From contig CM109709.1 of assembly GCA_048771875.1 (NCBI GenBank), forward strand, positions 44,324,541 to 44,388,540: a stretch of DNA of 64,000 bases, written 5' to 3'. This document shows, in pieces, positions 18,972 through 56,154 of the stretch; the stretch's first letter is position 1; the number at the start of each line of letters is the position of its first letter. The stretch comes from Ctenodactylus gundi (taxonomy: Eukaryota). The notes beneath the pieces were generated by a model. It made no database searches, was not told the DNA's origin, and saw nothing but the letters and a program-made list of their open reading frames with translations. The position numbers and the translations under genes were made by a program.

Positions 18972-19250
18972 GTGAGATGCTGGCAGTTGTTTTTTCCTCC
19001 TATAGTAGGATGGAACCCAAAGCATTAACACTGAACTATGTCCCCAGCCCATTTCACTTTTTGAGATAGGATTTTGCCAAATTGGTGAGGCTGGAGTCGA
19101 GTCTGCAATCCTTTTGCCCCAGCAACCCTGTTGGTTCTTCAAGTCAGGCCTCTTTTAAACCAATTATTGCTGTTCCATCCTAGACCTGGGTGTTAGCTGC
19201 TTTCCCTTTTCTTAGTCCTGTTTATGCTGACTCTGTTTTCACTTGTTTAG

Positions 19251-19768
19251 GAGAGGAGGAACACGATCAAGAAGGCCGGGTGATTGTGGCGGAGTTTGAC
19301 TCATTTGTGCTAGTAACAGCCTACGTCCCTAACGCCGGCCGGGGTCTGGTGAGGCTGGAGTACCGGCAGCGCTGGGACGAAGCATTTCGCAAGTTCCTGA
19401 AGAGTCTGTCTTCCCATAAGCCCCTTGTACTATGTGGTGACCTGAATGTGGCTCATGAAGAAATTGACCTTCGTAACCCCAAGGGAAACAAAAAGAATGC
19501 TGGCTTCACCCCACAAGAGCGCCAAGGCTTTGGGGAACTGCTGCAGGCTGTGCCACTGACCGACAGCTTCCGGCACCTCTACCCGAGTGCCGCCTACGCC
19601 TACACCTTTTGGACTTACATGATGAACGCTCGGTCCAAGAATGTGGGATGGCGCCTTGATTACTTTCTGTTGTCCCATTCTCTTTTACCTGCATTGTGTG
19701 ACAGCAAGATCCGTTCCAAGGCCCTCGGTAGTGATCACTGTCCCATTACCCTGTACCTAGCGCTGTGA
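19251..19768 (+). CDS. APEX1: APEX1 terminal coding exon (…[15 protein letters not shown]…[10 protein letters not shown]), stop TGA at 19766-19768
   Basis: ORF 19190..19768(+). Acceptor ttgtttag. The total CDS is 957 nt = 318 aa, the same as human APE1. The exonuclease-III family nuclease domain is intact. Confidence 0.95.
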
Positions 19769-20002
19769 CACCTGCCCCAGTTACTCAGCCTGGAAATCCC
19801 CTGCCCTCCATATAAGTATTCTTTAACAGCTTTCTTAAGGGATCCCCACTATCTCTAATGAGAATATGAATCCTTTGACCAGGCTTCTGTGACAAGACTA
19901 AGGTTTCTTGTAAGCCCAAGGTTTTTGTTCTGAGTTCCCCCTTTTAAGAAAAAAAAGTTAAAAAAAAACTACTTATGACTTCCTTTGAACTATTCATGTG
20001 AA

Positions 20003-35737: not shown

Positions 35738-35907
35738 ATTCACGTACGAGGACTACCAAAAGACAGCAGATTGGCTGCTCAGCCACACCAAGCACCGGCC
35801 TCAGGTGGCAGTGATCTGTGGTTCTGGGCTGGGAGGTCTGGTTGAAAAATTGACTCAGGCCCAGGGCTTTGACTACAGTGAGATACCCAACTTTCCCCGA
35901 AGCACAG
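35738..35907 (+). CDS. PNP: PNP exon 2 ((G)[56 protein letters not shown] + G)
   Basis: Anchored on ORF 35727..35918(+). Acceptor cccctag, donor GTACTGAC. Confidence 0.92.
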
Positions 35908-37748
35908 GTACTGACTAATGGGAAGGAAGGGATGGAACTGAGGAGTAGGGATGGGATTCTGTGGGACCCAATCGGGGGGCCAACGTTTTTACTGGATCTA
36001 GAATTTAACCAAAGTCAAGTGTGAGAGAGGGGAAAAAGACTACCAAGAGTTGGAATGGCGTTATTAGGAAATTCTCTTAATAGAAATTTCCTAAAAAATG
36101 CAACATGTGTGTGTCAGTGGCACTGTGATACCAGCTTTCCTATGTGTTACTGATTTAAAGCTCTGCAGCACCTCCCCCTGGTTGCACCTCCTCCATACAC
36201 CAGGGTCACCACATACACGCACAGCACATTCCTCATGTTCCATCCAGGCGTTAGCGTAAGTGAGAAGAGCACGATCTCCAGCTCCTCAGGACAGGGTCTT
36301 ATTGCTGTTCTCCACACCTGTACTCCAGGCCTAGAATAATATACATGCTGGTACATGGTCACAAGGGAACACCCACACACCACCAGTACAGGTGCACATA
36401 CAGCTAAGAATGAAAAACACAGTACCTGATTCACATGGATCTTTTTCTTGGAAGTGGGAGGAATAGATAAATGTTCTCCATGCACAATGCAACTTTGAGG
36501 AATCTGAAGATAGCTCATGCAGATTTCTACAAACAACCAGAAAGCTGTAAGGCTGAGATGTAGAAGGGAGTAGTAAGGTCAGATGTGGTGGCACACCTGT
36601 AACTGGAGCACTCTGGGAGAATAACAGGAGGATAACAAGTTTGAACCCAGCTTTGGCAACTTAGAGAGACCCTGTCTCAAAATCAAAAATGAACAAATGG
36701 CTGGTGATGTAGCTCAGTGTGAAGGCCCTTGTTTCAATTCCCATGTCAATTTCAACTTCTCATGTGAAACAAGGCATATAAAGGACAAGATTTGTTTGGT
36801 TAACTTATTCTCAAATTATTAACTTCCTTTGGGTTATTTATTAATTTTTTTAAAATTTCAAACTTTCTCTTTTTCCTGAAGAGTTAAGACATTTGACAAT
36901 TTTTTAAAAACCACTAGGAGCAAGACTGGGAGGCCAGATCAGGGAAGCGTGGGAACAGAGAGAAAGAAGGGACTATCGAACAGAAAGGGGCAAAGGGAGA
37001 GTATAGTTCTTGCAGGGAGATGGTGGGAGGAGTTCCTACCTCCAGTGAGCAGAGCACTACAGTAAGTGATAAGCAAGCTGATACTAAGTTTATCGATCCA
37101 TTTTTTTATACTATGCTTGGATTTTACTGGGTGAACTTTGTTCTCTTACTAGTACCTTGTTGTAAGGTCCTCTACCTCTGCATTTGCCTCAATACTTCCT
37201 CTTGGTTCTGGTTCTTTTCCAGACCATTATTACCTCAGGGATAAGTTGGCCACCCATGAGAGGAAACTGCCAGATGAGGGGATGGTAACAAAGGCCGTTA
37301 GGCCTGTGGGGAGTTATCTTTGCATCCCCCCGCCCCTCCATGGGCGTGTGTTCTCAAGGGACTGTTCTGAGGGTTTGAAAGTAGGAGAGCGATGTGGGCT
37401 CAGGTCCAACCACTATCTCCCTATTCGGTAGCCTCCTCCTCTCTAGGAAGCCAACATGTACCATAAGCTCCTGGGATATGGGAGGCAGGTAGTTAGAAAG
37501 GCAATATATAATAATATGCATTCAAAATTTTGACAACTTTTGAAGAGGCCTGTAATTATTGCATTCATCTTTACTCCCTTTACTCCATTGCAATGCAGCT
37601 TTCTCATACTTTTGAAATTTCTTTTAAAAATCTTCCTTTTTTGTGAATTATCATTGAACATTCTTATGCCTGTAGCTCTAAACTCGGGTTGCCTTGAATG
37701 ACAGATTGTCTTATCAAACGTCTAATGTTTTTTATTTTTCAATTATAA

Positions 37749-38102
<354 letters not shown>

Positions 38103-38105
38103 TGA

Positions 38106-38327
<222 letters not shown>

Positions 38328-38400
38328 TAGGTGTTGTCTGGAATTCGGGCACTAGCTCCTTGAACCTCGCTTCTCTGAGATGACCTAATGTGTGCCCTAG

Positions 38401-38591
38401 GTTTGGAGTTCGTTTTCCTTCCATGTCAGATGCTTATGACCGGAATATGAGGCAGAAGGCATTCAGCATCTGGGAGCAAATGGGGCAGAAGCGAGGGCTC
38501 CAGGAAGGCACCTATGTGATGCTGGCTGGCCCCAACTTTGAGACCGTGGCAGAGTGTCACTTGCTGCAGAAGCTGGGAGCTGATGCTGTTG
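38401..38591 (+). CDS. PNP: PNP exon 5 ((R)[63 protein letters not shown] + G)
   Basis: ORF 38390..38674(+). Acceptor gccctag, donor GTGAGGG. Confidence 0.93.
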
Positions 38592-39405
38592 GTGAGGGAA
38601 GGGGAGCTTGGCTGGAGGCTTGCGGGAAGGATCTGGCAACAGAGGGGAGGGGAGGAGTAGAGGACAGGCTCTGAGAGAGGGTCTGGTATAAGGGAAGGCA
38701 GATTAAAATGTCTTGTAGGAAAACAGCAGGGAGGTTGGTTGTGCTGTAGCACAGTGCTCAACAGCTTCAGTGCTAATCACCTAGTCATGACTTGACTGTT
38801 CCTAAGAATTATTCTAACAAATATCAATATAGTCAACTTCTTCACTTGTGATTTATTTGAATGTAGACATCTGTCATTAGAGTTGACTTCCGAAGTACCA
38901 CAGATAGAGAAATAACACATTGTATTTACAATGTTTATAAGAAATCCGTGAGACCTTCTTAGGCCCCACTTCTTTTAAGCAGCACTGCACAGTATGAGCT
39001 CCATACCAATTTACTGCCTCTGGATGCTCTAGGACCTGTGCACTACACATTGTGAACTATATCCACAGCCCATTTTTATTTTTGATTGTTGAAACAGGGT
39101 ATCACTAATTTGCTAAGGTGCCTGGGCTGGGCTTGAACTTGAAATCTTTCTGCCTTAGTGTCCCAGAGCACAGGGATTATAGGCCTATGACACCAGGCCC
39201 AGCTTCTTGTGTTTTGGTGTTATCATTCTTAACTTCATAGATAATTTAAAGTTTCAGAAAGCCCTGGACCTAGTAGAACAGGCCTGTAATCTCAGCACTT
39301 TGGGAGGATGGAGCAAAAGGATTGCACATTTGAGTCCAGCTTGGGCTATAAAAGAATGAATTGGGGATGTAGCTCAGTATGAAAGCACTGGGTTCAATCC
39401 TCAAT

Positions 39406-39410
<5 letters not shown>

Positions 39411-39460
<50 letters not shown>
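39411..39460. repeat. (AG)n microsatellite (~25 units) ~50 nt upstream of the PNP exon 6 acceptor
   Basis: agagagag... run. Confidence 0.95.
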
Positions 39461-39464
<4 letters not shown>

Positions 39465-39507
39465 TTTGTGAATCTTAACTGTTGCTGTCCCTGTTCCTTC
39501 CCATTAG

Positions 39508-39725
39508 GCATGAGTACAGTACCGGAAGTTATAGTTGCAAGGCATTGTGGACTTCAAGTCTTTGGCTTCTCACTCATCACTAACAAGGTCATCACAGATT
39601 ATGAAAGCCTGGAGAAAGCCAATCATGAGGAAGTGCTCGAGGCTGGCAGACAAGCTGCAAAGAAATTGGAACAGTTTGTCTCCCAGCTTGTTGCTAGTGT
39701 TCCACTCCCTAACAATGCCAAATGA
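39508..39725 (+). CDS. PNP: PNP terminal coding exon ((G)[71 protein letters not shown])
   Basis: ORF 39468..39725(+). Acceptor ccattag, stop TGA at 39723-39725. Total 870 nt = 289 aa, the same as human PNP. Confidence 0.93.
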
Positions 39726-40149
39726 CCAGCCCTGGAGTGGTGCCATCCTGATGGGATCCAATTGGTTACTGCCTGCTTTGGCCTCTTGCTGGGGTCACGT
39801 GCCTCTGCCTTTAGGTAGTAGTAGAAAGAGAAGGGGATCTCTGTCCTTTGCCTTTCCCATTCCCCCCCCCCCCCCCACCCCAGGCCTTTCTGGTTCCAGG
39901 TCCACTGGCTCAGTCGTCATCTCAAAGCAATTTGATGCCACCTCTAGTCTTCTGTAAGAGCAGGAGCCCAGGGCCTACAGAACTTGGGAATATGCCAATA
40001 ATTTGACTTTAGCCTTCAGGTTTCTGACCAGAAGATGCACTAGCCCTGTGAGATGGTGCCCTCATGTTTTCGGGGCTCAGTTCTGCCTCCCCCTAAATCA
40101 CTAGAGACCAAACAAAGATTGGTCCATACATACATCACAGTGTTTTGAG

Positions 40150-40155
40150 AATAAA
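40150..40155 (+). terminator. PNP: Candidate PNP poly(A) signal AATAAA, ~425 nt after the stop
   Basis: gagAATAAAgaaatg, followed by a T-rich stretch. Confidence 0.45.
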
Positions 40156-42724
40156 GAAATGAAATGTTTTTTTTTCTTTTTTGTGAAGCTTGGGATAAGG
40201 CTGGAGCACAGGCTAAGACTGGCACACAAACAGCTCTGTGATTGCCCATCTTGGGTGACTCTCAGAAGAGCTGTTAAGAACTGAAGTGAGGTGGCTATGT
40301 GAGCAGCAAAGGCGAAATGAAAAAAGGTGTTAAAGCCGCGGTTGCCACTTCTTTATGATTCTCTTCGTTGCGTTCTGTGCTCCCTACTCATTCTGTAAAC
40401 ACGGTCTCCTTCCAACAGCGGAGTCGCCAGTATCCCTCTGCCTGGTGCAGCTGCCCCGCTGCTGGCCAGATTCCTTCCTGCCACCCAGCCACTCATACTC
40501 CTGTCCTCTGGAGCACCTACTCTCCTCCTCCTGCTTCCTCTCTGGGCTCCAGGCTATCATGTTCTCCTGGTCAGACCTCCCGTGACTCCCGTGGTCCTTT
40601 GTTGGCTCCCCAGGAGGCTTCTGCTCATCAATTTATAATCAGCTGCCTGGAGTGTTTGGAAACCACACTACCTTCCCAGGCATGGGTGCCTTTTGAGAAG
40701 AGACAGTGCTGCTGGGTGCAGACGGGTACTGAGACCCTGTCCCCAAAATAAAACCAGAAGGGCCGGCCCTCAGTGGTGGAGATCCATTCCCAGGGTCCAT
40801 CCTTAGGGTTACAAAAAACAACAACAACAAAAAGACAACGCTATAGATGAGCCTCGACTACTAGTGGCCTTTTGGTTGTTAGTAATATAACATGAGAGAT
40901 TTTGGACAGAGGCTTTCAGACCTTTTGTTTGATAACTGACATACTTAGCTGAGCTCAGCCCAGAGGAAGAGCCCCTGGAGTGCCACTGCTGTCACTGCTC
41001 TTCACAAGTTCTTTGTACATCTGCTTACCCCCTAAAACACCCTAGACCATTAGGCCAAATGCCAGAGTCTTTTGTCCCTGAGAGTTAGTTTAAAGGGAAT
41101 TACTGTGCCTCCTTTTGATATATACATAACTGTGGCTTGTTCACTTAATGAGAGCTTATAGACATTTTAATCATTATTAAATATTTCTTTGTATAACACT
41201 TAGCTAATAAAATGGTAAATCGAGTATATATAGATGGTCCTTCCTTTCAAGTGGCCTGTAATAAGATTTATGAAGCATCTGTTTTATAAGGTTTGTGTGA
41301 AATACATACAAGTTGGTGGCTTTATTCTTTTGAGTGCTGGAAATCAAACCTAAGAAGTACACTCATAGCTCCTGAGCTTAGTCTTGAAAGGGGAAGGGGA
41401 AGAAGTAGATTTCATGTTAGGACTAACCAAACAGTGGACCTTGGAAGAGTGTTGACACTTGAGCAGGCCATTGTCACAACTGGTGACTAGGCCAGGGCAT
41501 CAAGTGCTCTTGTGGGACACGTGCAGAGGTAATTGGAGGTCAGAGGAGGGTATGGGGCTACCCCTGCCCTAACTCTTGGTCAAACTGAACAGGAACCAGA
41601 ATGGTGCCACTTGAGACATACATCCTGGAGATACCAGAGAAGGATATTAAGGGTATTTTTAGATTTTATAAATGGGTTTTCTAAACTTTTAGGTACTTAG
41701 GAAGACATAAGTTGTCTTCAGTAAATTTTTTTTTAAACAAAGACAGGAGGATTGCAATTCAAGGCCAGTGTAGTACACTTAGCAATTTAGTGAGACTATC
41801 TCAAAAAAAAAGAAAAGCTGGAGAGGTAGCTCAGTACCAATGCCTTAGTTTCAATCCTCAGTACTGCAAACAATAACAAAATGAATTTATATTTAGATAA
41901 GATTTATATACCATAAAATTTATTTATTTACAGAGTATAATATTTAGTATACTCACAGGTAAATGCAATTATCTCCAGCCAATTTTAGAACATTTTATCA
42001 CATTAAGAGGAAACCATACCCACTTCAACTCTACCCATCTCCAGTGCAGTGGTAGTGCCAAACCACTAATCTATTTTTTGACTATAGATTTAACTATTTT
42101 GCACTCTGATATGAACATAATTACATGAGGAATCATGTAGACATTTATGCCTGGATCCTTCACTTTGCATAATGTTTTCAAGGTTTCTTCAAGTTCTGTC
42201 AAGTATGGGTACTAATTTTTTTATGGACAGATTCTTTGTTGATACAATACTTTGTGAAACATCTTTAATTTTAAAGTGTTGACCAACCAAGCCCAATCTG
42301 TATCTGTGTAGCCGAACATGACAATATTGGCTCAAGTCAAGGGAACTAGGTGTAGAAGGGCTCCCTAGATAAAAGAACTTATTGGAAAAATCTAGCGAGG
42401 AGCCCATTCCTTTCTAGGGGGGCCTTTGGGGTGTCTGCAGAATGGATTGATTTTCTGAGTCTCATAGTAGGTGTCAAAACACACACTCAGGTCAGGCTTT
42501 CTTCCCTGCTCCTGCCGTGATCAACTTTATCAGCATCAATAAGTGTTTGTTGACCATAGACTATGCATAGAGCACTGTCCTAAAAATGATCATAAGTCAG
42601 TAAAGACCCGGTACATACAATCTATGTGGGAGAGAGATTATATGCCTAGAGAGACAAAGTTGAGTCAGCTAGCCATACCTAGAAGCTGCTAATGACTACG
42701 TCTAGTCTTTTTATATGTAGTATT

Positions 42725-42960
42725 GTCATTCTTGGGATTGGAGGAATGACGCAGAGGTTAAAGCATTTGCCTAGCAAGCTCAAAGCCCTGGGTTTGATTC
42801 CCCAGTACCCCATAAGCTGGGCAAGGAGGCACATACCTGTAATCCCAGCACATGAGAGGCTGAAGCAGGAAGATTGCCATGAGTCCAAGGCTAGCCTGGA
42901 CTCCATAATGAGTTCAGGACCAGCCTGGGCTACAAAGTGAGACCCTGTCTTAAAAAAAAA
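42725..42960 (+). mobile_element. Dimeric B1/ID-type SINE, sense
   Basis: ttggaggaatgacgcagaggttaaagcatttgcctagcaagc...cctgtaatcccagcacatgagaggctgaagcagg...gagaccctgtcttaaaaaaaaa. Confidence 0.7.
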
Positions 42961-45640
42961 AATTGTCATTCTTTATAGTTGACTTTCTCCACTGAACTGC
43001 AAGCAGACAGCATAATTGAAGAAACCACAATAATACGCAAACAGGTAGCATATGTTAAATGTTAGAGACCATCCATGTTACAGGAATTCAAAAGAGGATC
43101 AACACTTATGGGAGCTGGGGTTGAGGGTCATGGAAAAGGATTAATGAGACTTAAATCAAGCCTTACAGGATGCGTAGATGGTGAGGATGTGGCAGATGGT
43201 ATCCCATGAGGAAAATCCAGGGATGTTTAGCACTTCACAGATTGCAATGGTTAAACTGAAGAAAAGTAGGAGAAGGCGAAAGAGAAAGGGAAGAGGGACT
43301 AGACTATTTAGGGACTGTGGTTCCAGGCTGAGGCATAGAACCTTACTTTTTAGGCTAGATGGGCAGCCATTGAGAAGTTCAAACTAAGGACCAAAAGGTA
43401 AAAATTGCACTGTCTTATTTTGATGACTACACACCTAACTAAGAGCTAAGAGGCTGTTTGGATGATAGCATTACTTTCACCAGATCTCTATAGAATGATA
43501 TTTTTGTTGGTGTTAATTACTTTTTAAAATCAGGTTGTACTCTTTTTGTACTGTCTTTAAGAATAAGCTGTTAAGAGGTGGGGCATAGCTCAGCAGTAGA
43601 GTGCTGGTCTGCCAGGTACAAAGCCTTGGTTTTGGCTTCCAGGGCCCCTCAATAAAACTGTCATAAAATAAAATGTAAAGCAGAAGTACAAATAATTTGA
43701 AGTAGCTTAGAAATGAAAATACACACTGGAGGCATCATGACCATCACAGAATAATTTTTAGAATTGGTGTTATCTGAGTAAAATTCCTGCCTCTGGCCTC
43801 ACCCAATGACAAATACCACCACTACAGTGTATGTAAGAAATCTGCTTGCACAAGACTGCTTTGCACTGGCCAGTGGGGCAGGGCCTTCATGAGTTGTGTT
43901 TCACCAGGTCACAGCTCTGCTCCCGTCCTGTCTGTAAGGAACAGGAAGTTATGAAAGATAAGCTTTGCCCTCAGATGACAGGTCTGCCCCTAAGTGTGCA
44001 TATAGTCTTGACTCGCCTATGAAAATGTAAACTGGTAAACCCAACACTCTGGGATGCTGAGGCAGGAGGATTACAAGTTCACGACCAGCCTGGGCAATTT
44101 AGTAATTCAGTAAGATCATCTTAAAATAAAAATAAAAAGTGGGATGGGCTGTATATCAGTGTGAGGCCCTGGGTTCAATCCCAGTACAAAAAAATAAAAT
44201 TGCAGAGAGCCAGCGGTCTAAGAGCATCAGGGAGAGGAAGGGAGAAAGTGGGGAAGAAGAAGGGAAAATTTCTTCTCCAACCACTATCAGCTAATCCACA
44301 GACATTATTTTATTAGTAGTAATTTTCTGAGACAGGGTCGTGCTCTGTAGTCCAGGCTGGTCCTGAATTCACTACGTTGCCCAGGCTGGCCTCAAACTCA
44401 TAGCAATCCTCCTGAGTAGCCTTCAAGTTCTGGCTGTGATTGCAGGTGTGCTCTACCACACCCACTTATTATGTGCTGCTGAGGGATCAAACTGGGACCT
44501 GGAACTTCCTAGGCAAGTGTTCTAATCACTGAACTATGTCCCCAGGCCCTAGGCAGTATTTCTTAAGCCAGCTACTTTGCAGCATGCAGATTTTTCTCTT
44601 ACTCTGTATTTTTTCACCCAAGTATTATTTATGTAATGTTTCAGATAATATTTATCTAAATTTTTAGTACTCAAAATAACATGCCCCTATTTTTAAAAGA
44701 AAAGAAAATACCACACTCAAGAAAAACGAATGGCTTTCTTTTTACTTTAAAAATGTGAGTGGTTAACATCACAGTTAAAAAAAAACAACTAAGCAACATA
44801 AAATGTAGACACTGAAGTCTTCTATCCTAACCCCAACACTGGTCTTCCCTTCCCTACCCCTTGGTAACCACTTTGATTACTTCGTTTTACATTCCTCCAA
44901 GATTTACATGAATACAGATTTTTATTTTTTCTTCTCATGTATGTCATCTATACTATCCTGTGTCTTGTTATTTTATTTGTATTTAATATATTTTATTGAT
45001 GATTTCTCCTGAGTAACTTGGTGTGCTTCCTTGTTGATTAGATCAGGGCTGCCAAAGATACAAGTCTGTTCCTTCAAACATTTTAGAAGCAATTTTTGTT
45101 TTGCTTCTTAGTGTTTTTCCAGTGTGTGTGTGCTGGTTATCAAGAGGAATGGAAACAGAAAGCTACCACCACCTGCTTCCCATTAAAACTAACTGTCAGG
45201 AAGGGCGCTGCCCCTGTTATTGCACTGTGCCCTCCACCTAAATTCAATTTGGCTGACATTGGTGTTGCCTTTTCCCCTGTGAAAAAGGCCTCTTCTTTCA
45301 CCATGTTTTATTTCTAAGGGCTATTTCTTGAACACTGGCTGTCTGCCTGGTTTTTCTATTACTCTAACTTTGGAATTCAATAAAAATAAAAGTTTTCCTG
45401 TTTTTCATCTTTTTGCCTGATTTTTTGTTTTGGTCTAACTTAGAATTGGTATTTTTTTCCCCAGGATTTATCTGCCTTTCTTCCCTTGTTTTTAGGTCGG
45501 AGAGCCCTTCCTCCTCATTCGGCTTTTCACTTTCGCGTCCATCATTCCTTCTGAAAAGGTCGTTTTCTCAAACTTGCCAATTTCTTTTATTTTTCTTTTT
45601 TCTTGTTATCCTGCTCTTTTTTTCTATACACTTTTGTGTG

Positions 45641-45648
45641 TGTGTGTA

Positions 45649-45700
<52 letters not shown>
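45641..45700. repeat. (TG)n microsatellite
   Basis: tgtgtgtg... run ending gcgcgcgcc. Confidence 0.9.
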
Positions 45701-45702
<2 letters not shown>

Positions 45703-47489
45703 CCAGTTTGCTTATTAGCTATTTGATTTCGGCCTGAGACTTTTCTTTTCCTGTTTTATTCTGGACTGTTTCTACCTGAGTCCTGCTATAGTTTGAAATA
45801 AAAGATTAGCAGAAATATAGTACTACTTTATGTGTAGCCTGATCGGGCCTAGTTCTGTCAAATGTTCTTTTTACCTCGCAGAGGTAGTTTCTCATCAATT
45901 CCTGCTCACAATGTCAATCCCCTTTGCTTTGCCAAAATAATACACAGCAATCACTGTTGTTACTGTCCCACCAACTCCGTTCAACAAAGTAAGAAAATAA
46001 TTTTACAGCCATTAAGATAAAGATGATCAAGGTTGGCACAGTGGTTGGTTTTAATATTGTTAACTTGGCAGTGGGGGTGTTCTTACTCCTAATATCAGAG
46101 ATAAGATGTCAGGAAGAGCAGGAAGCACATGAAATGCCAGATTGTGAGTGTAACTGTCTGAAAGTTCTTGGGCAGGTGGTCGTCAGGTTTCCAAGAATGC
46201 CAACTCCTTTTCTCTGCTCACGAATGGATAAGAACCACTGTTATTAACTACGTTATTTATTTTGTTTAAAGTATTATTTGCTATGTTAAGAGTAATTTAA
46301 AAATTTTTCTCCTAACCTGCCATTCTTATTAGCTGTCTACCTTCAAACTATTTTCTGTTTACTGATTCTTCACTGCAGGGTAATCCAATTCACAGTAGGA
46401 AGAGCTTCATAAAAATAATTTGTTGAATTGCATTCCTGAGATGTTGAAGCAGGAGGTCAATGAATAATTGACTAGGCTGTGAAGTTTTGACCTTAGAATT
46501 GCTAGAATTCTTGTCAAATCGTGTCATCTAAAGCACTGGGGTTTGTGTGCACAGCTTGAATAACAACAGCACGGGTCCTTCACACTGATACAGAAGGTGC
46601 TGCGACGTTACACCATACACACATGTCACAATGGTTACAAATCCACGCGTGCACTTCTGCTTGATCCACTTCAGGGTGGGACCCGAGGAGCTGGGTGCTT
46701 GGGCCTGGAAAAACAGGGACAGTAACCAGGATTCAAGACAAATAGACGCAACCTACTGCTACCTTAGTCAGGGAGGACCAACTTTCTAGCTTAGCAATTG
46801 AGGAACCTTCAACCTTGCAGAAATTTGCTTAGTTGTTCTCATCCGTGGGTGATCCTTTGTGCAGGAAAAATATCTGATTTGTAAATTGAGGTGTGCTAGT
46901 GAGTGCCCACCTTAATGACCTGGGGGTTTTGCTTTTGTTTGTTTGCGTTCATCTTGACTTAGGCATTTTTTGTTTTGTGTGCATTTCAGATATGGTTGTT
47001 GGCAATCCTTGAGTTTGCCCAGGTGTTGAAATGTAAAAGAATGAAAAAAATAAAAGAAAACAAAGAAAGAAAGGAAGAAAGAAAAAAGAAAAGAGGGAGA
47101 CTATAAGTTAGGTTTTACAATTCAGGAATCTTCAGGAAAACCACACACATCTAAAACTGAGCTTGAGCTATTCGACCCATTGTGGTTATCTCCTTCTTAT
47201 GAAAAACTTTTTGGCAAGTTTGCTCATTTAATTATTTATTTATGAGACTACAAATAGGAAAATGAAGTGGTGGTGATTCATAAATATAATAGCACCATTT
47301 CTCCAAAATGTAAAATTATCAGTACCAGCTGAGATTTGAATTAAGACAAATCAGTACTGGGTAACTAATTAGCTACCATTTTCAATATTAAACCATCCTA
47401 AACTCCCAATCTACGAGAGAAGGTGGGGCTAAAAACCCACAGCTCCAGCTTTGGGGACCAAAATGCAGGCTTCGAGAAGTGTAGAATAT

Positions 47490-47700
47490 GGGGTTGAAAG
47501 AACAGCACAGCGGTTAAAGCACTTGACTAGCAAGCACAAGGCCCTAGGTTTGGTTCCCCTGCACCACATAAACTGTCTGTGGTGGTGCATGCCTGCAATC
47601 CCAGCACTTGGGAGGCTGAGGTGGGAGGATTGCCAGGAGTTTGAGGTCAGCCTGGACTCCATAGTGCTTTCAGGACCAGCCTTTGTCAGCAATCTTTACT
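47490..47700 (+). mobile_element. Dimeric B1/ID-type SINE, sense
   Basis: agaacagcacagcggttaaagcacttgactagcaagcac...cctgcaatcccagcacttgggaggctgaggtgggagg. Confidence 0.65.
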
Positions 47701-50700
47701 TCGCGGCTCACGCTTAGTGTCGAAGACTTTCATGCTCACAGGGCATTGTCCAGAGTTCCTCGTTGTGGGTTCCTCCAAGAAATCATCTCTATATCACCAT
47801 ACGTTTTTCTGTCTACAAAGGAACTTCCAAGAGTCCAACAGACCTGAGTTCAACTACTGACTTGTTTACTAGATGTATGGGGATCGTGGGTATTTTTGTA
47901 AAACCAGAATGCCCTATTTCTTTGTTTATAAAATGAGGACATAGTGAGGTCTGGACTTATAGAACAAGATCATGTCTCTAATTATTTTTTAAAACAATCT
48001 GTGGGCCACATTACTAGCTGTCCAGTGCTGCACTGAGATAATGTTTATTTATTTATTTATTTATTTATTTATTTTTGAGACGGGATCTCACTCTGCAGCC
48101 CAGGCTGGTCCTGAACACATTATGAAATCCAGGCTGGCCTTGAACTCACAGCAATCCTCCTGTTTTAGCTTCCCAAGTGCTGGGATTACAGGCGTGCACC
48201 ACCCACACCCAGTTTATGTGGTGCTGAGGAATAGAACTCGGGTACTTAGCATTTGACTAGCACTTGCTAGGCAAGTGCTTTAACTGCTCAGCCATTCCTC
48301 CAGCCCTGAGATAATGTAAATATAGGGTAAAAGCAACATTTCTGGCAATCAGGCAGCATTTTATAAACATTAGATTTATCTCTTTGTATCCCCCCTGGGG
48401 CAATGAGTATGTTTGTTATATGATATCATGATATAAACTCAGAGTTCCATGTGTAGTGCCTAAATTTCTCTTTTGAAAGGAATCATAAAGTAGAGGAAGA
48501 ATACTGAAGTAATGTAACTTGAATGGTCAATTCTTATACAGTGTGACCACTTTTTTTAACATGTTCTTGGAAGAAACCTCAAGAATGTTCTGTCATTAAG
48601 GCAATTTTTACTTTTTTGTGTGTGATACTGGAGAGCCAACCCAAGGCTTTCACACGGAGCTACATCCCCAGCACATTTTTTAGTTTTGATTTAGAAACAA
48701 GGTTCCATTAAGTCACTAAATTGCCCAGGTGGGATTCTAACTTGTGGTTTTCCTGCCTCAACCTCCCAGAGTGCTGGGATTAACAGGTCTATGCCATCAG
48801 GCCTGGCTAGTTTTTACCTTGTGTTTACAATAAGGCTGGCACCAAGTGCGCCTGTGGGGACAGGAAGGTGACCTGAAGTGGCACTTTGAGGCCAATGCAA
48901 ATGAGCCCCGCGCATTTTCTCTCCTGCTTCCTCTCTCCTAGGGTCAGGCCAAGGCTCTGGCTCTTGGTGTCCCCTAGAATCACGGTTGAGGGCCTCGAAC
49001 GACAAAAGAAGGCCCAGTGTCTCTCGGAGGACTCCAGGGCTAGGTCCCCCTCCCGCTCTCTGAGCTCCGTGAGCCTTCCTCGCTCACGGTCCTCGTCCCG
49101 CCAGCTTCTCCTCTCCGCTCAGGGTGAACCCGCGCTCCCTCCCTTGGCTCTCCTTCAAAAACGTTTGGTGTTTTGTAGATCCTCTCCGGGAACAGAGGAG
49201 GAAGCCAGAGGCGGAGCCCCGAGCAACTGGAGCTCCTGGCTGCAAAGCTCAGAACTGCCTGACCTTACCAACACACCGCTTCGTTTTTTAAGTGTGTGAT
49301 TTTTCAAGTGGAAAGACGGTACAGCTGATCTCCAAGCGCCCTTCTCACGCAGTCCTAGCAGTCATCAGCATTCGGTCCATCTGGTTTCATTTCTCTTGGT
49401 TTTATTTTATTTCCATGCTTATTGTTGAATATCTTAAAGCTCACCATGAATTTGTTTTTGGTGGAGTCTCCCGCCTTCCTGGCAATAAGGCAGGCGGTCA
49501 GCAGAGGAAGCCCCGCACCCTTCCTCCCTTCCCTTCTCCCTGGCTCTCTCTTGCTGACTTTTGTCAGATCAGGCCTAAGTACTGTTTCCTAGCCGGATCT
49601 GTATTCTGATAACGATGGTTGAATACCTTCCTTATGACACACACTGTCTTTGACACCGAGAGCAAGAAGAAGAAAAATAAGATTAAAAACACAAGTTCCA
49701 CAGCAAAGAGAGAGGGAAAAAAGTAAAAGAGTAATGCTTGCTGCCCCTGTGGGGTTTCCCTAGCACCAGGCTTGCCCACTGCGCGCTGGGTATGCTGACT
49801 CCTGTGATTTCCCCAAATGCGGGAACCTCGACTACGAATGTGCGTTAGTTGGGGACTGTGTTCTCGAATTTCCCCTCGGGAGAAAACTACTGATAGGTTG
49901 GCTTGATCATTTCCACTCGTGCAGCAGGCCTCCGGCTGTTTGCTTTTTCAGTTTAGAACCATAAGAGTATCGACAAGGCCACAGAATGAACTTCCTGCAG
50001 GAACTTTCCTTAAGGAGTCTCTGGTTTGACTTTGAAACGTTTCTTTTATTTGCTCTTGTGTGTTCAGAAAAACCCAGCACAAGAAGCATTTTTTTCTACC
50101 AGATTTCGGTAAATTCCTTCTGTGTGCAGGCCCTCCATTTTCTTAGAGTCTTGGCCAATTTAGAAGACCGTTCTTCCCTCCTGCAGGACCGAGGCCCTAT
50201 GAGTCAGAGGCTTGGGCGGCTTCTCCAAGAAGACTGCAAGTGTTGACTCATTCATTGTACCTGATTGAAGGAGCACTGTTTTCAAAAGTGACATTCTGGT
50301 CAAGACCTTGGTTGTAGAATTGATTTTTTGAAAACCAACTCTGGTAGAAAAGAAAGCAGATATTGCAAATACTATATTGTCATGAAAAGAAAAGAGGTGG
50401 TGAGATTTTCTGAATTCTTGGCTGGGTTGTATGGATCAATGAGAATTAGATATCATTTAAATTTTCTTCTGTTTAGCAAAGCAGAATCTACTCGTTCTAA
50501 GTCATGGAGAGCTTAAGAAGAAAGTGAAACATTTTCACACATGTTCAGAATAGATCACTGAGACGTCAATATCGATGTAGAACTGTAAAACAATATTCTA
50601 GACAAAAAATGACACATTTTGCATGTCAGTTGATTCAGTTCTGTATAATCCATTATTATTCTGTTGGAGCTTGGGTTTACAGTCTCCCGGAGCTGTCTGC

Positions 50701-53700
50701 TTTCTGACTAAATAGAGTTCTTGAAATATTGAGTCAGTCCGTGGGTTTGGCCAAAAATTGTCTAAGTCATGTGAAAACAAAAGTCTGTGTGCATGTGTGT
50801 TTTAAAGTGCGAAAATTTTCAAGTGTCTGGTGCAGTTCCATGAGGTTCTGAGACCGTCCTTTATGGAAGACACAAAATCTGGCATGCAATTTACAGCAGA
50901 TATCTCCGGCAAACATTAGAAAAGACAAGAACTTCCTGTTGGTGACAGCTTTCAAATCTTTGTAGTTAATTACTGATAATTTTCAAATGTGAGGTTTATG
51001 AAAGCTCATAAGAAGAGCAATGTGTGTCAAAAGAAATAACCCACCAGCTGTTCTGTAGATCCTTGAGGAAAAGACTTTACCTGGGTCTTGGCAGGTGGTG
51101 TAGCAGAAGGAATTATGGGTGGGTGTCAGCGGATCAGAGGTCTGATCCTGTTCTGTCACCCATTATTTGTGTGGCCTTAGGCAACTCACTTAGCATCATC
51201 TTTGGGCCTCAAGTTTACTGTAAAAGGGGAGAAATAAATTCTAGGTCTTTGGGCCTGGCAGAGAAGTTGTGAAAGGCACGTAAGGCTGTGTATGTACAAG
51301 CAAGCTAAAATGGAAAGTCATCTCTTTAGATCCCAGAGACCCTAAACAGCATATTTGCATGAGTTGGAAGAAAGATCTTCTCTGCACCAGTTTCTGCATT
51401 TGCTTAGAAGAGCACAGGTGAGGTTTCAGGCTCTACCTATCCCCTTTGCTGGCCACATCTGAGTAGAGTATAACCTGAGAACTGTCTGTAAGAAGAATTA
51501 CACACTGTAACATTAGAAGGCAGAACTCCCTAAGGAGAGTTTTGCTGCATATTTTTACCTGGCCGGGCCCCCTTGTGTGCTGATGAGTCACAGGAAACTG
51601 GTGCTCTGTGCTGCCCAGAACTGAGCATTTTTGGAGCCTAGCAGAGAGCAATATTTAGACAGTGGCTCATTCCAAATAATGTGTCAGGAGCCATATGAAG
51701 TGGCACATACGGGGTAATCTGAGCCTTGGCAGGCCGAGGCAGGAGGACAGCAAATTTGAGGCCCACTAGAGCTACATAGGGAGACCGCATCACAAAGCAA
51801 CAAACAAAAACAACAAATGATGTATCAGTCTTTGAAAAAAAATGCCTCCTTCCATCACACTGGACTTTTTGTATGTGGGGGGTGTGTGAGTGGCAACAAC
51901 CTTGGAAAAGAAGATAGCAGCTTGTTGGAGACCCTCAGCAAGGTCGGATGCCACACTATGCACATATTGTTTAGATCTTTTTCTTCTAATGTTTTCATGT
52001 CTTTTGTCCTAAGAAACTCAGCGACAGAGCTCAAGGCTGAGCTGTAATCTTGTAACTAGTCAACTGATACCAGGCAGTCACAGAGAGCTATACCTGCAGA
52101 ATGAAGGAAATCTCTTGTGTGTGGAACGTAGCAAGACCCCTGCTAAGCAATTCTGCTAGTCAAGGCTTCTCAACCATGCTGCCACATCCACCCTCAGGTA
52201 GCAAACGTGTTGGGTGTCCCTATCCTGAAGTGCAATTTCTGGAGCATAATATATGTATGTATGTAAGCCCGGATAATCCATTCATATTCTGAGCACTCAA
52301 TTGCTTCAACAAGTCAATCCTTTCCTGCATTCTCGAATTTTCCTCTCTACTGGGTCTTTATTATCAACAAACAAGCTATTATTTTTCCCATCTTAAAAAC
52401 AAGCAAAGGAGAGGAGTGTAGCCCAATGATACAGAGTTGCCTAGCATCATGAGGCCATGAATTTGAGCAGCACAGCAAAACAAACACATACAAAAAAAGG
52501 AAAAGGGTAAAAAGAAACACCTTCTCTTGCCTTTCAGTCTCATCTAATCTTGTGACTTTAGATACCTAATCACATGTTCATAATGCTCAAATTGTATACA
52601 TAGTGTCTTGGTTACTTTTTCATTGCTGGGACATAATACCCATCATCCACAACTTAAGGAAGGAAAGATTTATTTAGCTCATGGTTTCAGAAGGTCACAG
52701 TTTGTTCATAAGTGGGTGGATTCATGGCAGCGTTGGAGCCAGAGCCAGAGGTCCTTATGGCATGGCAGAACAGGAAGCCTAGTCAAGCCAAGTTAAGTCC
52801 CAGAAGGAAGACAGGAAGCAGCATATTTCCTTCCTGGTCCCGTCCTACTGATCCACCCCTTCTTGGTCCAGCCTCAGTGTTCTGTCTCTTCCAGGTTTAA
52901 GGCCCCGTCACCTGCCTGCAATCCAGTCCTCACACCTATAATCCACCAAACACCCATAATCCACCAGTCCATACCAGGCCCTCATCTCCCAAGAGCACAT
53001 GGTTCTATAGATAACCCATAATGTTCCTTGTTAGTAAGGCTTTTGGGGAACATTCCAAACCCAAACGACAATATATAGAAAAGTGTGAAGCCAACACACA
53101 GAGCTCTCCCATTCTGTTCACCCAATCTTCCCCAGTGTATGTATGTTACCTGACTGTAGCCCAATACCGAAACCAGAAAAATTGACATTAACATCATATG
53201 TGTGTGGGTGATCTTGTTATTTGTGCTGCCATCAGTCTGTCACAACACAGATCTATTTCATCGCTGCAAAGATCTCCCTTGGACACTCCTTTTAGTTACC
53301 CCACCATCCTAACCACCAGCCACCTATAATTGGCTGTCCATGTTACAGAAATGCAATCCTGCGAAGCATGACACCTTTGTTTTTCCTACTCAGCGTAGCG
53401 CCCTTGAGATCCATCCACACAGCTTGTTGCACATATCAGTCTTGTATCCCTGTTAATTGCTGAATGAAATTATGTGGTGATCATGTACTGGCTTGTTTAA
53501 CTCTTCTCCTAGTGAAGGACATTTGGACTATTTCTCATTTTTGGCCACTATGTTTAAAACTTGCCATTTTACTGATGCCCTGGGTTTTTGTGTGGACATA
53601 CATTTTCATTTCATGTACCTCTAAAGCACAATTGCTAGGTTATAGAATAAGCAAATTTGGTATTTTAAAAATCTATAATGATAGTGCAGCCTTGGATAAG

Positions 53701-55335
53701 CTCCTATCTAGGGCTGAATAATTGTAGCTGCAAATTCCAGATGTTCTAAGAGGCAGTGGAGAGTAGAGGGCTGGGTAAAGGCATAAATAAAGGGGAAATT
53801 TACAATTAACCTAAATACCCCAAATCTCCAAATGGAGTCACAATACTGATGTAAAATGGGAAAAGCAAAATAATCACCTTGGAGAGGTGATTTGAATAAA
53901 CGACAAACATTTCAGCATCCCAGAAATGACAGGAAAGGGTTTAAGGAAGTACATGTGAGGAACATAAGATAAGTACATTTCAAATTTATGCACAAAGACT
54001 GTTACAAACCACAAGTCAGTGGGTGTAATTTAAGAGTGATAGGATAGACTGTTAACATCAAACTGTTTTCAATTTCCGAGGCTAGAAACATTTCCTGTCT
54101 TGGATGCCTGGACCTGCTTTATTGTCCAAATAGCTTTTCTTCAAAGCATTTGTGGGAACAGAAAGGCAATTGGCTGAGTATGTATGTCGGTGCTGGGTGG
54201 AGGAAGAGACAGAGGAGTGGGCTTAGGTAGTCAGTCTGCATTTAAGAGCCCACAGACCACCAGCAGGTAACCATTTTTATGCCGTCCAACGTCCAGGGCA
54301 GTGCTCACCGAGGAGAGGACCCTGGGAGGTAGGAACGTGGGGAACAGGGCTTCAAATATTCTGAAGTTACATAGGTTTGTAGGTAAGTCACCATGGTGTT
54401 GGTTGCCCCAGGGAGAAACATAGAAAATTCTTTTCATTTTTAAGTAAAAATGCTTGAGTGTGAAATATTCTCAACTTTATAAGAGTTGATACCGGAGAGG
54501 GGAGTCATCATGCACTCATACACATATGCACATATCTGTACTCTAGATTGAGAGACGGTTGCACAAACAGAGCTTTTTAATATGTCAGTGTGCTTTTTCT
54601 AGGAGGAAGCACTTTCTGCTAATTGGAGTATAACTTCAAAATTGAGTATATCAAACACTGACAGAAAAAATTTAGCTATTTTTATTTGTTTCAATAATGT
54701 TATTTATAGCTGTAAAAACAAAAAATAAAGATGGCTTTATTCCGTGCCTTCACAGCTAGCAGGATCTTAGTTAGTAAGGAAACCCCGGCAAGTCAGTAGT
54801 TTGCTTGCCTTGGTTTCTTTCCTCAGAGCACAAACCTGATCAGAGGAATACCCAGGTGCACAGAGGTCTACAGTCAGCCAAGGAATCTGGCACGACAAGA
54901 TACAGCTAGTTTTCCCAGCGGCCTGAAGTATGAAACTTCAGTTTAGGAGTGGGAATAGATTATGGTGCTCTTTTGTATTTATTTTTATCTTATCGAGGGA
55001 GCAGACTAATATTAATATGCAAAAGTAATTTGGAGATAAAAATAGAGACATTATCTCCTGTGAGAATGTAGTACCTTCACTGTATTTTTTCTTTTTTTTT
55101 TGCACTGAGTATCGAACCCAGGACCTTCATACTGAGCTACAGACTCTGCCCTTTTTATTTTTAAAATCTTTGTCACAGGGTCTCACAGAGTCAGTGCATT
55201 GACCAGGCTGGGCTTGATCTTGCGGTTTTTCTGCTCCAGGCTCTCAAAGGCCGGAATTATAAGCCTGCACTGCCGGGCCCAGGTCTGTAAGAATTTCGCA
55301 GTCTTTAGGATTCACAGTTTGTAACACACTAGTAA

Positions 55336-56154
<819 letters not shown>

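What the first reader, a model, noticed from the sequence alone, without database searches (positions are those of the whole stretch)
48850..50000. Orphan CpG-rich, repeat-free ~1.1-kb segment between PNP and RNASE10
Against a background of CpG-depleted, SINE-saturated intergenic DNA, this stretch is unique sequence with many CpGs (gcgc, tcgaacgac, ctcgtcccgcc, cgcgctc, ggcggag, ccgcttcg, gacggtac, ctgcgcgctgg, ctcgactacgaatgtgcgttag...). It has no convincing ORF: the 137-aa ORF 48886..49299 is low-complexity Ser/Arg/Leu-rich. CpG retention suggests an unmethylated island. It may be an unannotated promoter of a lncRNA or alternative transcript, or a conserved enhancer. The flanking 50-52 kb is also unusually repeat-poor.
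Basis: seen in the sequence. Interest (0 to 1): 0.5.

Follow-up and report, generated by a model that had tools for sequence, protein, structure and literature searches.

The report
Weak CpG patch plus dead U1 copy
The flagged stretch between the gundi PNP and RNASE10 genes is a patchwork of an old rodent non-coding block with a mildly CpG-rich middle and a decayed lineage-specific copy of the U1 splicing RNA, so it is borderline and fairly ordinary rather than one clean orphan CpG island.

Summary
The window is Ctenodactylus gundi DNA. The finding lies 7.5 kb past the PNP 3' end and 4.3 kb before RNASE10 exon 1.

The CpG enrichment is real but weak. The whole segment has O/E 0.54 and GC 0.52. 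GC-matched non-island DNA in the window has median O/E 0.18. Island thresholds are met only with hand-tuned boundaries, and a UCSC-style caller ignores the region.

The segment is a mosaic of three parts:
- **48,806-49,395:** an old block with orthologues in chinchilla and mouse. Two short anchors are conserved. The CpG-rich core between them (48,850-49,350) is CpG-enriched in chinchilla too (O/E 0.49 against 0.21 background). In mouse it is a CpG-poor tandem repeat.
- **49,399-49,606:** a block shared with caviomorphs but inverted in them.
- **49,607-50,515:** DNA with no counterpart in any fetched locus. It holds a decayed U1 snRNA pseudogene (49,734-49,877, Rfam E 1e-7, below threshold) with no stem-loop I, no Sm site and no promoter.

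No coding signal and no conserved promoter motifs were found.

Best reading: a partly methylation-protected distal regulatory block next to a dead U1 retro-copy. Methylation and transcription could not be tested.

The parts
48601..48808 (.). B1-type SINE that forms the left boundary of the unique segment. It is not part of the feature.
   Evidence: It matches five other in-window copies at 68-76% identity and SINEs in all other rodent loci.
48806..48842 (.). Conserved anchor 1. It includes a forkhead-type TGTTTAC core that is invariant in gundi, mouse and chinchilla.
   Evidence: nhmmer alignments to mouse L013:143 onward and chinchilla L010:1 onward. In alignment A3 the stretch TAGTTTTTACCTTGTGTTTACAATAA matches mouse at 24 of 26 positions.
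48850..49350 (.). CpG-enriched core: 24 CpGs, GC 0.58, O/E 0.57, with peak 500-bp windows at 0.63-0.65. The + strand is pyrimidine-rich.
   Evidence: It is orthologous to chinchilla L010:1-454 (nhmmer E 2e-16, 61% identity, 19 CpGs in each species, 5 of 18 aligned CpGs shared). Against mouse it aligns only at noise level, and mouse has a tandem repeat there with O/E about 0.1.
48886..49299 (+). It is not coding.
   Evidence: Listed. No Pfam match in any frame. Frame-breaking indels against chinchilla.
49296..49395 (.). Conserved anchor 2.
   Evidence: Four-rodent alignment A2 (gundi, mouse, chinchilla, degu) with 73% mean column identity. This is the high-posterior part of the mouse nhmmer alignment.
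49399..49606 (.). Block B. It is shared with caviomorph rodents but lies in the opposite orientation in them.
   Evidence: nhmmer against degu L007:1173-956 (minus strand, E 2e-8) and against chinchilla L010:2003-1898 (minus strand, E 8e-5). The Smith-Waterman control gave z = 14.5. It is not detectable in mouse.
49607..50515 (.). Block Y. It has no counterpart in any fetched locus and carries the U1-like element. GC is 0.36-0.41 outside that element.
   Evidence: No nhmmer hit in any of 13 loci. It is not the reverse complement of the caviomorph-specific block X. Collinearity with porcupine and degu resumes at 50,515-50,518.
49734..49877 (+). Decayed U1 snRNA pseudogene holding 7 CpGs. Most of stem-loop I is deleted. 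The 5' end reads AUGCUUGCUG where U1 has AUACUUACCUG. The Sm site AAUUUGUGG has become AAUGUGCGU.
   Evidence: Rfam RF00003 hit at 49,738-49,876: 38.6 bits against a gathering score of 69.5, E 9.8e-8. Nothing passes at gathering threshold. It is 77.6% identical to U1 nt 40-163, with no similarity in the flanks. No PSE-like or 3'-box-like motif. Absent from the chinchilla, degu and porcupine loci.
49714..49725 (+). Upstream copy of a candidate target-site duplication (GGGAAAAAAGTA). The partner GGGAGAAAACTA is at 49,878-49,889.
   Evidence: 10 of 12 positions match, with p about 0.02 by shuffling and by empirical window sampling. This is suggestive only, because the upstream copy is 8 nt short of abutting the U1 start.

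Best explanation
The 1.15-kb segment is a mosaic, not one element.

Part 1 (48,806-49,395) is an ancient rodent non-coding block. Its two ends are conserved from gundi to mouse. Its fast-evolving interior holds an intermediate CpG density (O/E about 0.5-0.6) in both gundi and chinchilla. I infer that factor binding at the conserved anchors keeps the roughly 500 bp between them partly unmethylated in the germ line. CpG-to-TpG decay is then slowed and CpG settles well above the 0.2 of surrounding methylated DNA. That would make it a weak non-methylated island or low-methylated distal regulatory region in the PNP/RNase-A neighbourhood, not a classical CpG-island promoter.

Part 2 (49,399-49,606) is a neighbouring block that was inverted in either the gundi or the caviomorph lineage.

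Part 3 (49,607-50,515) is DNA found only in gundi among the loci fetched. It contains a dead U1 snRNA pseudogene, most likely a dispersed RNA-mediated (class II/III-type) copy. Its leftover and newly arisen CpGs form the second CpG cluster that made the segment look like one long island.

Shown: the mosaic structure, the orthology, the CpG statistics and the U1 identity and decay. Inferred: germ-line hypomethylation, regulatory activity and the retroposition mechanism.
For: Mosaic structure and orthology.
- Chinchilla L010:1-454 and 782-1099 align to gundi 48,822-49,394 in the same orientation (E 2e-16 and 9e-5).
- Block B is inverted in chinchilla and degu.
- Mouse L013:143-831 aligns at E 6e-11, with two high-confidence anchors.
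- Block Y has no match anywhere.

CpG regime.
- Core O/E is 0.57-0.65, against a median of 0.18 for GC-matched non-island DNA.
- There is no TpG/CpA excess.
- Gundi and chinchilla each hold 19 CpGs in the core, although it is only 61% identical between them.
- 5 of 18 aligned gundi CpGs are retained in chinchilla and only 4 of 18 are TpG/CpA there. In the control blocks 6 of 44 are retained and 25 of 44 are TpG/CpA (Fisher p = 0.024 for the TpG/CpA share).

Not a promoter island. The UCSC-style caller does not call it and thresholds are met only marginally. The gundi CCAAT, octamer and GC-box motifs are not conserved.

U1 pseudogene.
- Rfam gives E 1e-7 but the score is below gathering.
- It is 77.6% identical to U1 nt 40-163, with no similarity in the flanks.
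- It has no PSE or 3' box.
- It is absent from the orthologous interval in chinchilla and degu.
- It is flanked by a 10/12 direct repeat (p about 0.02).

The dispersed class II/III U1 pseudogenes are defined by the lack of flank homology (PMC3561869).
Against: - Germ-line methylation, chromatin state and transcription are untested.
- The core is not under detectable sequence constraint. Its 61% identity is lower than the neighbouring blocks at 65-73%. A purely mutational cause such as GC-biased gene conversion therefore fits as well.
- The CpG-retention difference is not significant on its own (p = 0.27). The TpG/CpA deficit falls to p = 0.15 against non-coding controls only.
- Mouse has the anchors but no CpG enrichment (O/E 0.06-0.11), so the property is not rodent-wide.
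- Only one species (chinchilla) could be compared across the core, because the 10-kb flanks of the other six species did not reach it.
- The U1 flank comparison used human RNU1 flanks recalled from memory, not gundi U1 genes.
- The direct repeat does not abut the 5' end of the U1 copy.
Confidence: 0.55

Rival explanations
1. There is no function. The core is a neutral compositional patch, for example a long-lived GC-biased gene-conversion or otherwise low-decay spot. The rest is junk DNA plus a U1 pseudogene, and the conserved anchors are unrelated small elements.
For: The core diverges faster than neighbouring non-coding blocks and is full of indels. Mouse lacks both the sequence and the CpG enrichment. 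The region is only marginal by every island criterion. The CpG-retention statistics are weak.
Against: O/E is about three times the GC-matched background. There is no TpG/CpA excess. The same enrichment sits at the same position in chinchilla, a lineage separate from gundi. From general knowledge, PRDM9-type recombination hotspots are not expected to persist that long. The patch is bracketed by anchors conserved to mouse.
Confidence: 0.28
2. This is the first reader's view: a bona fide orphan CpG-island promoter driving an unannotated lncRNA or a distal alternative promoter of RNASE10 or PNP.
For: CpG enrichment is shared with chinchilla. Orphan islands often mark unannotated promoters, and distal islands can act as alternative promoters (PMC2944787; PMC5378174). 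The strand skew would fit minus-strand transcription. Transcription can cross this interval in other species, as the cattle PNP-RNASE10 read-through model P0212 shows.
Against: It is not called by a UCSC-style scorer and is only marginal elsewhere. Its CpG density is far below the window's four promoter islands. No core-promoter motif is conserved between gundi and chinchilla. The RNASE10 promoter and exon 1 lie at 53.7-54.4 kb in a much better conserved block. Mouse has no island here.
Confidence: 0.13
3. The U1-like element is an expressed variant U1 snRNA gene, and the CpG-rich DNA upstream is its promoter.
For: The Rfam alignment covers the full length of the model. An ATGCAAAT octamer is present at 48,895. 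Variant U1 genes once dismissed as pseudogenes are expressed in human cells (PMC3561869).
Against: The score is 38.6 bits against a gathering score of 69.5. Stem-loop I is reduced from 29 to 5 nt. The 5' splice-site-pairing end and the Sm site are mutated. No PSE-like motif (4 or fewer mismatches) exists within 240 bp upstream and there is no 3' box. The octamer lies about 840 bp upstream where about 220 bp is expected, and chinchilla does not conserve it. There is no flank homology.
Confidence: 0.02
4. The segment is a decayed protein-coding relic (a processed pseudogene) or an unrecognised transposable element such as an LTR.
For: It is unique in the window and has two ORFs over 100 aa. An A-rich tract lies at 49,640-49,733.
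Against: No Pfam similarity in six frames. No further copies appear in the 64-kb window or in about 240 kb of fetched rodent and bat loci. The block lies at a collinear orthologous position in three species.
Confidence: 0.02

Closest known systems
Orphan CpG islands (Illingworth et al. 2010, PMC2944787)
   Same: It is an intergenic cluster of CpGs remote from annotated promoters. Its CpG density is lower than at promoter islands, and the position is shared between species (gundi and chinchilla).
   Different: The density is only borderline (O/E 0.54-0.65) and a standard caller does not call it. The unmethylated state, H3K4me3 and transcription initiation that define the class experimentally are untested. 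The mouse orthologue is CpG-poor.
Low-methylated regions at distal regulatory elements, where transcription-factor binding lowers methylation locally (Stadler et al. 2011, cited from my own knowledge and not retrieved here)
   Same: This is the mechanism I propose. Conserved factor-binding anchors flank a region that escapes full methylation, which gives intermediate rather than island-level CpG content.
   Different: LMRs are defined from methylomes and are usually CpG-poor. No methylome is available here, and the germ-line activity needed to leave an evolutionary CpG footprint is assumed.
Dispersed class II/III U1 snRNA pseudogenes (Denison & Weiner 1982, as summarised in PMC3561869)
   Same: It is a U1-derived sequence with no detectable flank homology to U1 genes. 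It lies away from any U1 cluster, is mutated and internally deleted, and is flanked by a possible short direct repeat.
   Different: It is full-length at the 3' end with an internal stem-loop I deletion, not 3'-truncated. It has no A-rich tail. The direct repeat is imperfect and offset by 8 nt. The empty site could not be recovered, because the surrounding 0.9 kb also has no counterpart in any fetched locus.
Variant (class I) U1 snRNA genes (O'Reilly et al. 2013, PMC3561869)
   Same: It is an imperfect copy of U1.
   Different: Class I copies keep the DSE, PSE, 3' box and long flank homology, and they are transcribed. None of these features is present here.

Membership tests
CpG island (Gardiner-Garden & Frommer sequence criteria) | At least 200 bp with GC >= 0.50 and CpG O/E >= 0.60 | tested here: inconclusive
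   The finding as delimited fails (GC 0.52, O/E 0.54). A 401-bp core passes (GC 0.589, O/E 0.62). The longest passing interval, 48,975-50,072, sits exactly on both thresholds (0.500 and 0.601).
CpG island (Takai-Jones criteria) | At least 500 bp with GC >= 0.55 and O/E >= 0.65 | tested here: inconclusive
   Only one boundary-optimised interval passes, 48,909-49,426 (518 bp, GC 0.550, O/E 0.653). It is at the limit on all three measures.
CpG island (UCSC-style scoring caller) | A maximal-scoring CpG cluster longer than 200 bp with GC >= 0.5 and O/E > 0.6 | tested here: not met
   My one-pass re-implementation calls five islands in the window but none here. The best local segment is 48,983-49,134, only 152 bp.
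Orphan CpG island / non-methylated island | Unmethylated in germ line or tissues (CAP-seq, BioCAP or bisulfite) | not testable with these tools
   No methylation data are available. Indirect sequence signs are the lack of TpG/CpA excess and fewer CpG-to-TpG/CpA replacements than in controls (p = 0.024 or 0.15).
Orphan CpG island / non-methylated island | Promoter-type chromatin or transcription initiation (H3K4me3, RNAPII, CAGE) | not testable with these tools
   No such data are available. No conserved core-promoter motif was seen.
Conserved non-coding (regulatory) element | Orthologous sequence retained at a collinear position across distant species | tested here: met
   This holds for the anchors. 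Gundi, chinchilla, degu and mouse align over 49,296-49,395 at 73% mean column identity. Anchor 1 matches mouse at 24 of 26 positions. For the CpG core it holds only for gundi and chinchilla, at 61% identity.
Functional U1 snRNA gene (Rfam RF00003) | Score at or above the Rfam gathering threshold (69.5 bits) | tested here: not met
   The score is 38.6 bits, and there is no hit at gathering threshold.
Functional U1 snRNA gene (Rfam RF00003) | Intact 5' splice-site-pairing end, stem-loop I and Sm site | tested here: not met
   The 5' end reads UUGCUGCCCC against the model's AUACUUACCUG. Stem-loop I is cut from 29 to 5 nt. The Sm site AAUUUGUGG has become AAUGUGCGU.
Functional U1 snRNA gene / class I variant U1 gene | PSE at about -55, DSE/octamer at about -220, a 3' box, and flank homology to U1 genes | tested here: not met
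   No PSE-like site with 4 or fewer mismatches and no 3'-box-like site. The only octamer is 840 bp upstream and is not conserved. No flank similarity to human RNU1 flanks. Caveat: those flanks were recalled from memory, and gundi U1 genes were not available.
Dispersed (class II/III) U1 pseudogene | Significant U1 homology confined to the RNA-coding part | tested here: met
   Rfam E 9.8e-8. blastn shows 77.6% identity over 125 nt (E 2e-23) and nothing in the flanks.
Dispersed (class II/III) U1 pseudogene | Insertion signature: flanking direct repeats, and absence from the orthologous site in relatives | tested here: inconclusive
   A 10/12 direct repeat is present (p about 0.02), but it is offset by 8 nt at the 5' side. 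Chinchilla, degu and porcupine loci have no U1-like element. However, the whole surrounding 0.9 kb also has no counterpart in any fetched locus, so a clean empty site was not recovered.

The most novel reading that the evidence does not exclude
Between two anchors conserved across rodents, a weak non-methylated island arose or was kept specifically in the gundi/hystricognath lineage, while mouse carries a CpG-poor tandem repeat at the same spot. Under this reading it is a case of lineage-specific CpG-island birth or turnover at a fixed regulatory position. It might serve as a distal alternative promoter or germ-line-active enhancer for the epididymal RNase-A gene cluster.
Probability: 0.12. 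Interest if true: 0.4.

Novelty: new member of a known kind. Interest (0 to 1): 0.2.

Why it matters
If the core is a germ-line hypomethylated regulatory element, it would be a small example of CpG-island-like composition turning over between rodent lineages while the flanking anchors stay fixed. It would also be a candidate distal element for RNASE10, an epididymal gene required for sperm maturation in mouse (PMC3513842). Otherwise the result is mainly a caution for sequence-only scans. An apparent 1-kb "orphan island" can be a chance juxtaposition of a weakly CpG-enriched old block and an snRNA pseudogene whose CpGs lengthen the signal.

Tried and rejected
- **Exact-protein look-up of gundi RNASE10.** It is not on record, so no gundi annotation or context could be had.
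- **10-kb flanks that fell short of the finding.**
  - From the RNASE10 side, porcupine, squirrel, degu and bat reach only as far upstream as gundi 50,515, 50,801, about 50,518 and 51,043.
  - For the blind mole-rat, only the RNASE10 promoter and coding exon aligned.
  - From the PNP side, guinea pig and degu stop aligning at about 46,050.
- **N-terminally extended RNASE10 isoforms as a route to upstream exons.** They map to exon 1 at 54.24-54.39 kb, not to the finding.
- **Inverted copy of RNASE10 exon 1.** A weak tblastn hit of the bear exon-1 peptide to the minus strand of the core (E 0.001) suggested this. A four-species DNA profile and sensitive blastn found nothing, so it was rejected as chance.
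- **Class I (DNA-level) U1 copy.** No flank similarity was found.
- **Coding relic.** No Pfam hit was found.
- **Caviomorph block X as the reverse complement of gundi block Y.** This would have supplied an empty site for the U1 insertion. It was rejected by nhmmer --max and by Smith-Waterman (z <= 2.5, with inconsistent orientation, against z = 14.5 for the control).
- **Polarising the block B inversion with mouse.** Block B is not detectable there.
- **Guinea-pig Logan contigs as transcripts revealing upstream exons.** These were uninformative.
- **Two metagenome-contig scans for the anchor motifs**, in the hope of finding host DNA from other mammals. Both returned zero hits.
- **The third protein search.** I left it unused, because ORF translations of non-coding DNA at about 60-65% nucleotide identity would not share the required 5-residue words.
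Full report
**Source and context.** The 214-aa ORF at 55,510-56,154 (+) is 100% identical to the inactive ribonuclease-like protein 10 of Ctenodactylus gundi. PNP coding exons lie at 35,739-39,719 on the + strand. A guinea-pig PNP cDNA contig places the end of the 3'UTR near 41,230. N-terminally extended RNASE10 models from other species map RNASE10 exon 1 to 54,241-54,387. That exon lies inside the block 53,748-54,452, which is conserved in every rodent tested and in a bat. The finding (48,850-50,000) is therefore intergenic, 7.5 kb beyond the PNP transcript and 4.3 kb before RNASE10 exon 1.

**The observation.**
- The segment has 42 CpGs, GC 0.52 and O/E 0.54. The window-wide O/E is 0.31 and the median 500-bp window is 0.21.
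- The enrichment is concentrated in two clusters. One is 48,850-49,350 (24 CpGs, GC 0.58, O/E 0.57, peak windows 0.63-0.65). The other is 49,750-50,000 (11 CpGs). The stretch between them is poorer (O/E 0.36).
- It is not a by-product of GC content. GC-matched non-island windows elsewhere have median O/E 0.18 and 90th percentile 0.37, and only one other locus (about 19.25 kb) reaches 0.64.
- The core lacks the TpG/CpA excess that marks methylation-driven decay in the bulk (1.03/0.90 against about 1.2-1.35).
- As an island it is marginal. The delimited segment is below 0.6. Gardiner-Garden/Frommer and Takai-Jones criteria are met only by boundary-optimised intervals that sit exactly on the thresholds. 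A UCSC-style scorer recovers the four promoter islands (O/E 0.82-1.04) and the RNASE10 exon but finds only a 152-bp segment here.
- The stretch 48,810-52,000 has no in-window repeat copies. Many other bins are equally free, and a SINE fragment sits at 51,667-51,884.
- No reading frame has Pfam similarity.

**A U1 snRNA relic explains the second CpG cluster.**
- In E-value mode, Rfam finds U1 (RF00003) at 49,738-49,876 (+), with 38.6 bits against a gathering score of 69.5 and E 9.8e-8. Nothing in the window passes any gathering threshold.
- The alignment spans the whole model, but stem-loop I is cut from 29 to 5 nt. The 5' splice-site-pairing end and the Sm site are both mutated.
- Against the human U1 cassette, which I recalled from memory and used only as a lead, identity is 77.6% over U1 nt 40-163 (E 2e-23). 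Nothing significant appears in either flank.
- There is no PSE-like or 3'-box-like motif. The only upstream octamer is 840 bp away.
- This matches the dispersed class II/III U1 pseudogenes, which lack flank homology. It does not match the class I variant genes, which keep the DSE, the PSE and flank homology (PMC3561869).
- A 10/12 direct repeat (GGGAAAAAAGTA / GGGAGAAAACTA) brackets the element with p about 0.02. This is suggestive of retroposition but not conclusive.

**Orthologous sequence.** Ten-kilobase flanks of RNASE10 or PNP were fetched from porcupine, grey squirrel, degu, guinea pig, chinchilla, a bat, blind mole-rat and mouse. Most stop short, because the gundi interval (15.8 kb) is unusually compact; in degu it is about 47 kb.

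- *Chinchilla* just reaches the finding.
  - Gundi 48,822-49,214 aligns to L010:1-454 (nhmmer E 2e-16), and 49,148-49,394 aligns to L010:782-1099.
  - A transposable element is inserted between those two pieces in chinchilla.
- *Mouse* aligns over L013:143-831, which is GRCm39 chr14:51,235,566-51,236,254 (E 6e-11).
  - Only two anchors align confidently. They are 48,806-48,842 (24 of 26 identical, with an invariant TGTTTAC) and 49,296-49,395 (73% mean column identity across four rodents).
  - The core between the anchors aligns at noise level. In mouse it is a roughly 49-bp tandem repeat with O/E about 0.1.
- *Block 49,399-49,606* is present in degu and chinchilla but inverted (E 2e-8 and 8e-5).
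- *Block 49,607-50,515*, which includes the U1 relic, has no counterpart in any locus.
  - Caviomorphs instead carry an unrelated block of about 800 bp on the other side of the inverted piece.
  - No U1-like element exists in the chinchilla, degu or porcupine loci.

The "1.1-kb island" is thus a mosaic of three pieces with different histories.

**The CpG-rich core compared across species.**
- The chinchilla orthologue is also CpG-enriched (GC 0.58, O/E 0.49, against a locus background of 0.21).
- Gundi and chinchilla each have 19 CpGs in the core, although it is only 61% identical between them and carries many frame-breaking indels. That is lower than neighbouring non-coding blocks at 65-73%.
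- Of 18 aligned gundi CpGs, 5 are CpG in chinchilla and 4 are TpG/CpA. In the control blocks the figures are 6 of 44 and 25 of 44. The TpG/CpA deficit gives p = 0.024 against all controls but 0.15 against non-coding controls only. The retention difference is not significant.
- Promoter-like motifs seen in gundi (CCAAT plus octamer, and a GC box) are not conserved in chinchilla.

**Interpretation.** The structural conclusions are well supported: a mosaic, a dead U1 copy, an old block with conserved anchors, and a borderline CpG enrichment shared with chinchilla but not mouse. The mechanism is inferred. An intermediate CpG level that persists in two lineages, without sequence constraint and without TpG/CpA excess, is what partial protection from germ-line methylation would produce. 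Conserved anchors on both sides suggest bound factors as the cause. That makes the region most like a weak non-methylated island or low-methylated distal regulatory region, not a CpG-island promoter.

The main rival is a neutral compositional patch, for example from biased gene conversion. It is not excluded, because the core itself is unconstrained and the statistics rest on small counts. As Illingworth et al. stress, some CpG-dense regions are in fact methylated, and sequence criteria cannot decide the matter. Mouse islands are also systematically CpG-poorer (PMC2944787). The CpG-poor mouse orthologue therefore does not prove loss of function there either. A working variant U1 gene, a coding relic and an inverted duplicate of RNASE10 exon 1 were each tested and rejected.

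**Verdict.** This is a new instance of known kinds of sequence and of low to modest interest. Methylation, chromatin and CAGE data, or a whole-interval multi-species alignment, would settle it.

Noticed in passing
window 51,043-52,400: This non-coding block aligns not only to porcupine, squirrel and chinchilla but also to a bat (L011:1199-1842, 66% identity, E 1e-36). It is more deeply conserved than the finding itself and is a better enhancer candidate in this interval.
   Followed up: no
window 53,748-54,452 (RNASE10 exon 1 at 54,241-54,387): This is the most conserved non-coding block upstream of RNASE10 (66-76% identity in porcupine, squirrel, degu, chinchilla, bat, mole-rat and mouse). 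It contains the exon that encodes the N-terminal extension of the long RNASE10 isoforms, so it is the likely RNASE10 promoter and first exon.
   Followed up: partly
window 49,399-50,515; L010:1100-2003; L007:180-1173: There is a local rearrangement between gundi and caviomorphs. Block B is inverted. Gundi has a unique 0.9-kb block Y on one side of it, and caviomorphs have a unique 0.8-kb block X on the other side. The lengths fit a simple inversion, but X and Y share no detectable similarity. This remains unexplained.
   Followed up: partly
L013:~240-470 (mouse GRCm39 chr14, about 51,235,660-51,235,890): The mouse orthologue of the CpG-rich core is occupied by about four tandem copies of a roughly 49-bp unit (GCCCTCTGACTGGCACATGTGAGCCCTGGCACACTGACCCTTGAAAGAT).
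   Followed up: no
window 55,688-55,940: Part of the RNASE10 coding exon is called as a small CpG island by the UCSC-style scorer (GC 0.67, O/E 0.75). Gundi has 29 CpGs in the CDS against 16 in chinchilla, and 17 of 28 aligned gundi CpGs are TpG/CpA in chinchilla.
   Followed up: no
window ~19,250-19,800: This is the only other non-island locus in the window with a comparable borderline CpG enrichment (GC 0.54, O/E 0.64).
   Followed up: no
protein P0212 (Bos indicus x Bos taurus, UniRef): This is a 445-aa model that joins PNP exons 1-5 directly to the RNASE10 coding exon. It is a read-through or fusion annotation, which implies that transcription can cross the PNP-RNASE10 interval in cattle.
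   Followed up: no
L011:10,688-10,795 (-), Saccopteryx bilineata: A full-scoring U6 snRNA (103.8 bits against a gathering score of 44) lies about 40 bp downstream of the bat RNASE10 stop codon.
   Followed up: no
window 39,720-55,510 vs degu JH651704.1: The gundi PNP-RNASE10 interval is only 15.8 kb, against about 47 kb in degu. It is much more compact than in the other rodents sampled.
   Followed up: no
L010:455-781 (chinchilla): An interspersed repeat is inserted into the chinchilla orthologue of the core. It has copies in the degu, guinea-pig and porcupine loci and at gundi 12.8, 52.6 and 62.9 kb. It contributes 12 of the CpGs counted in chinchilla L010:1-800.
   Followed up: partly
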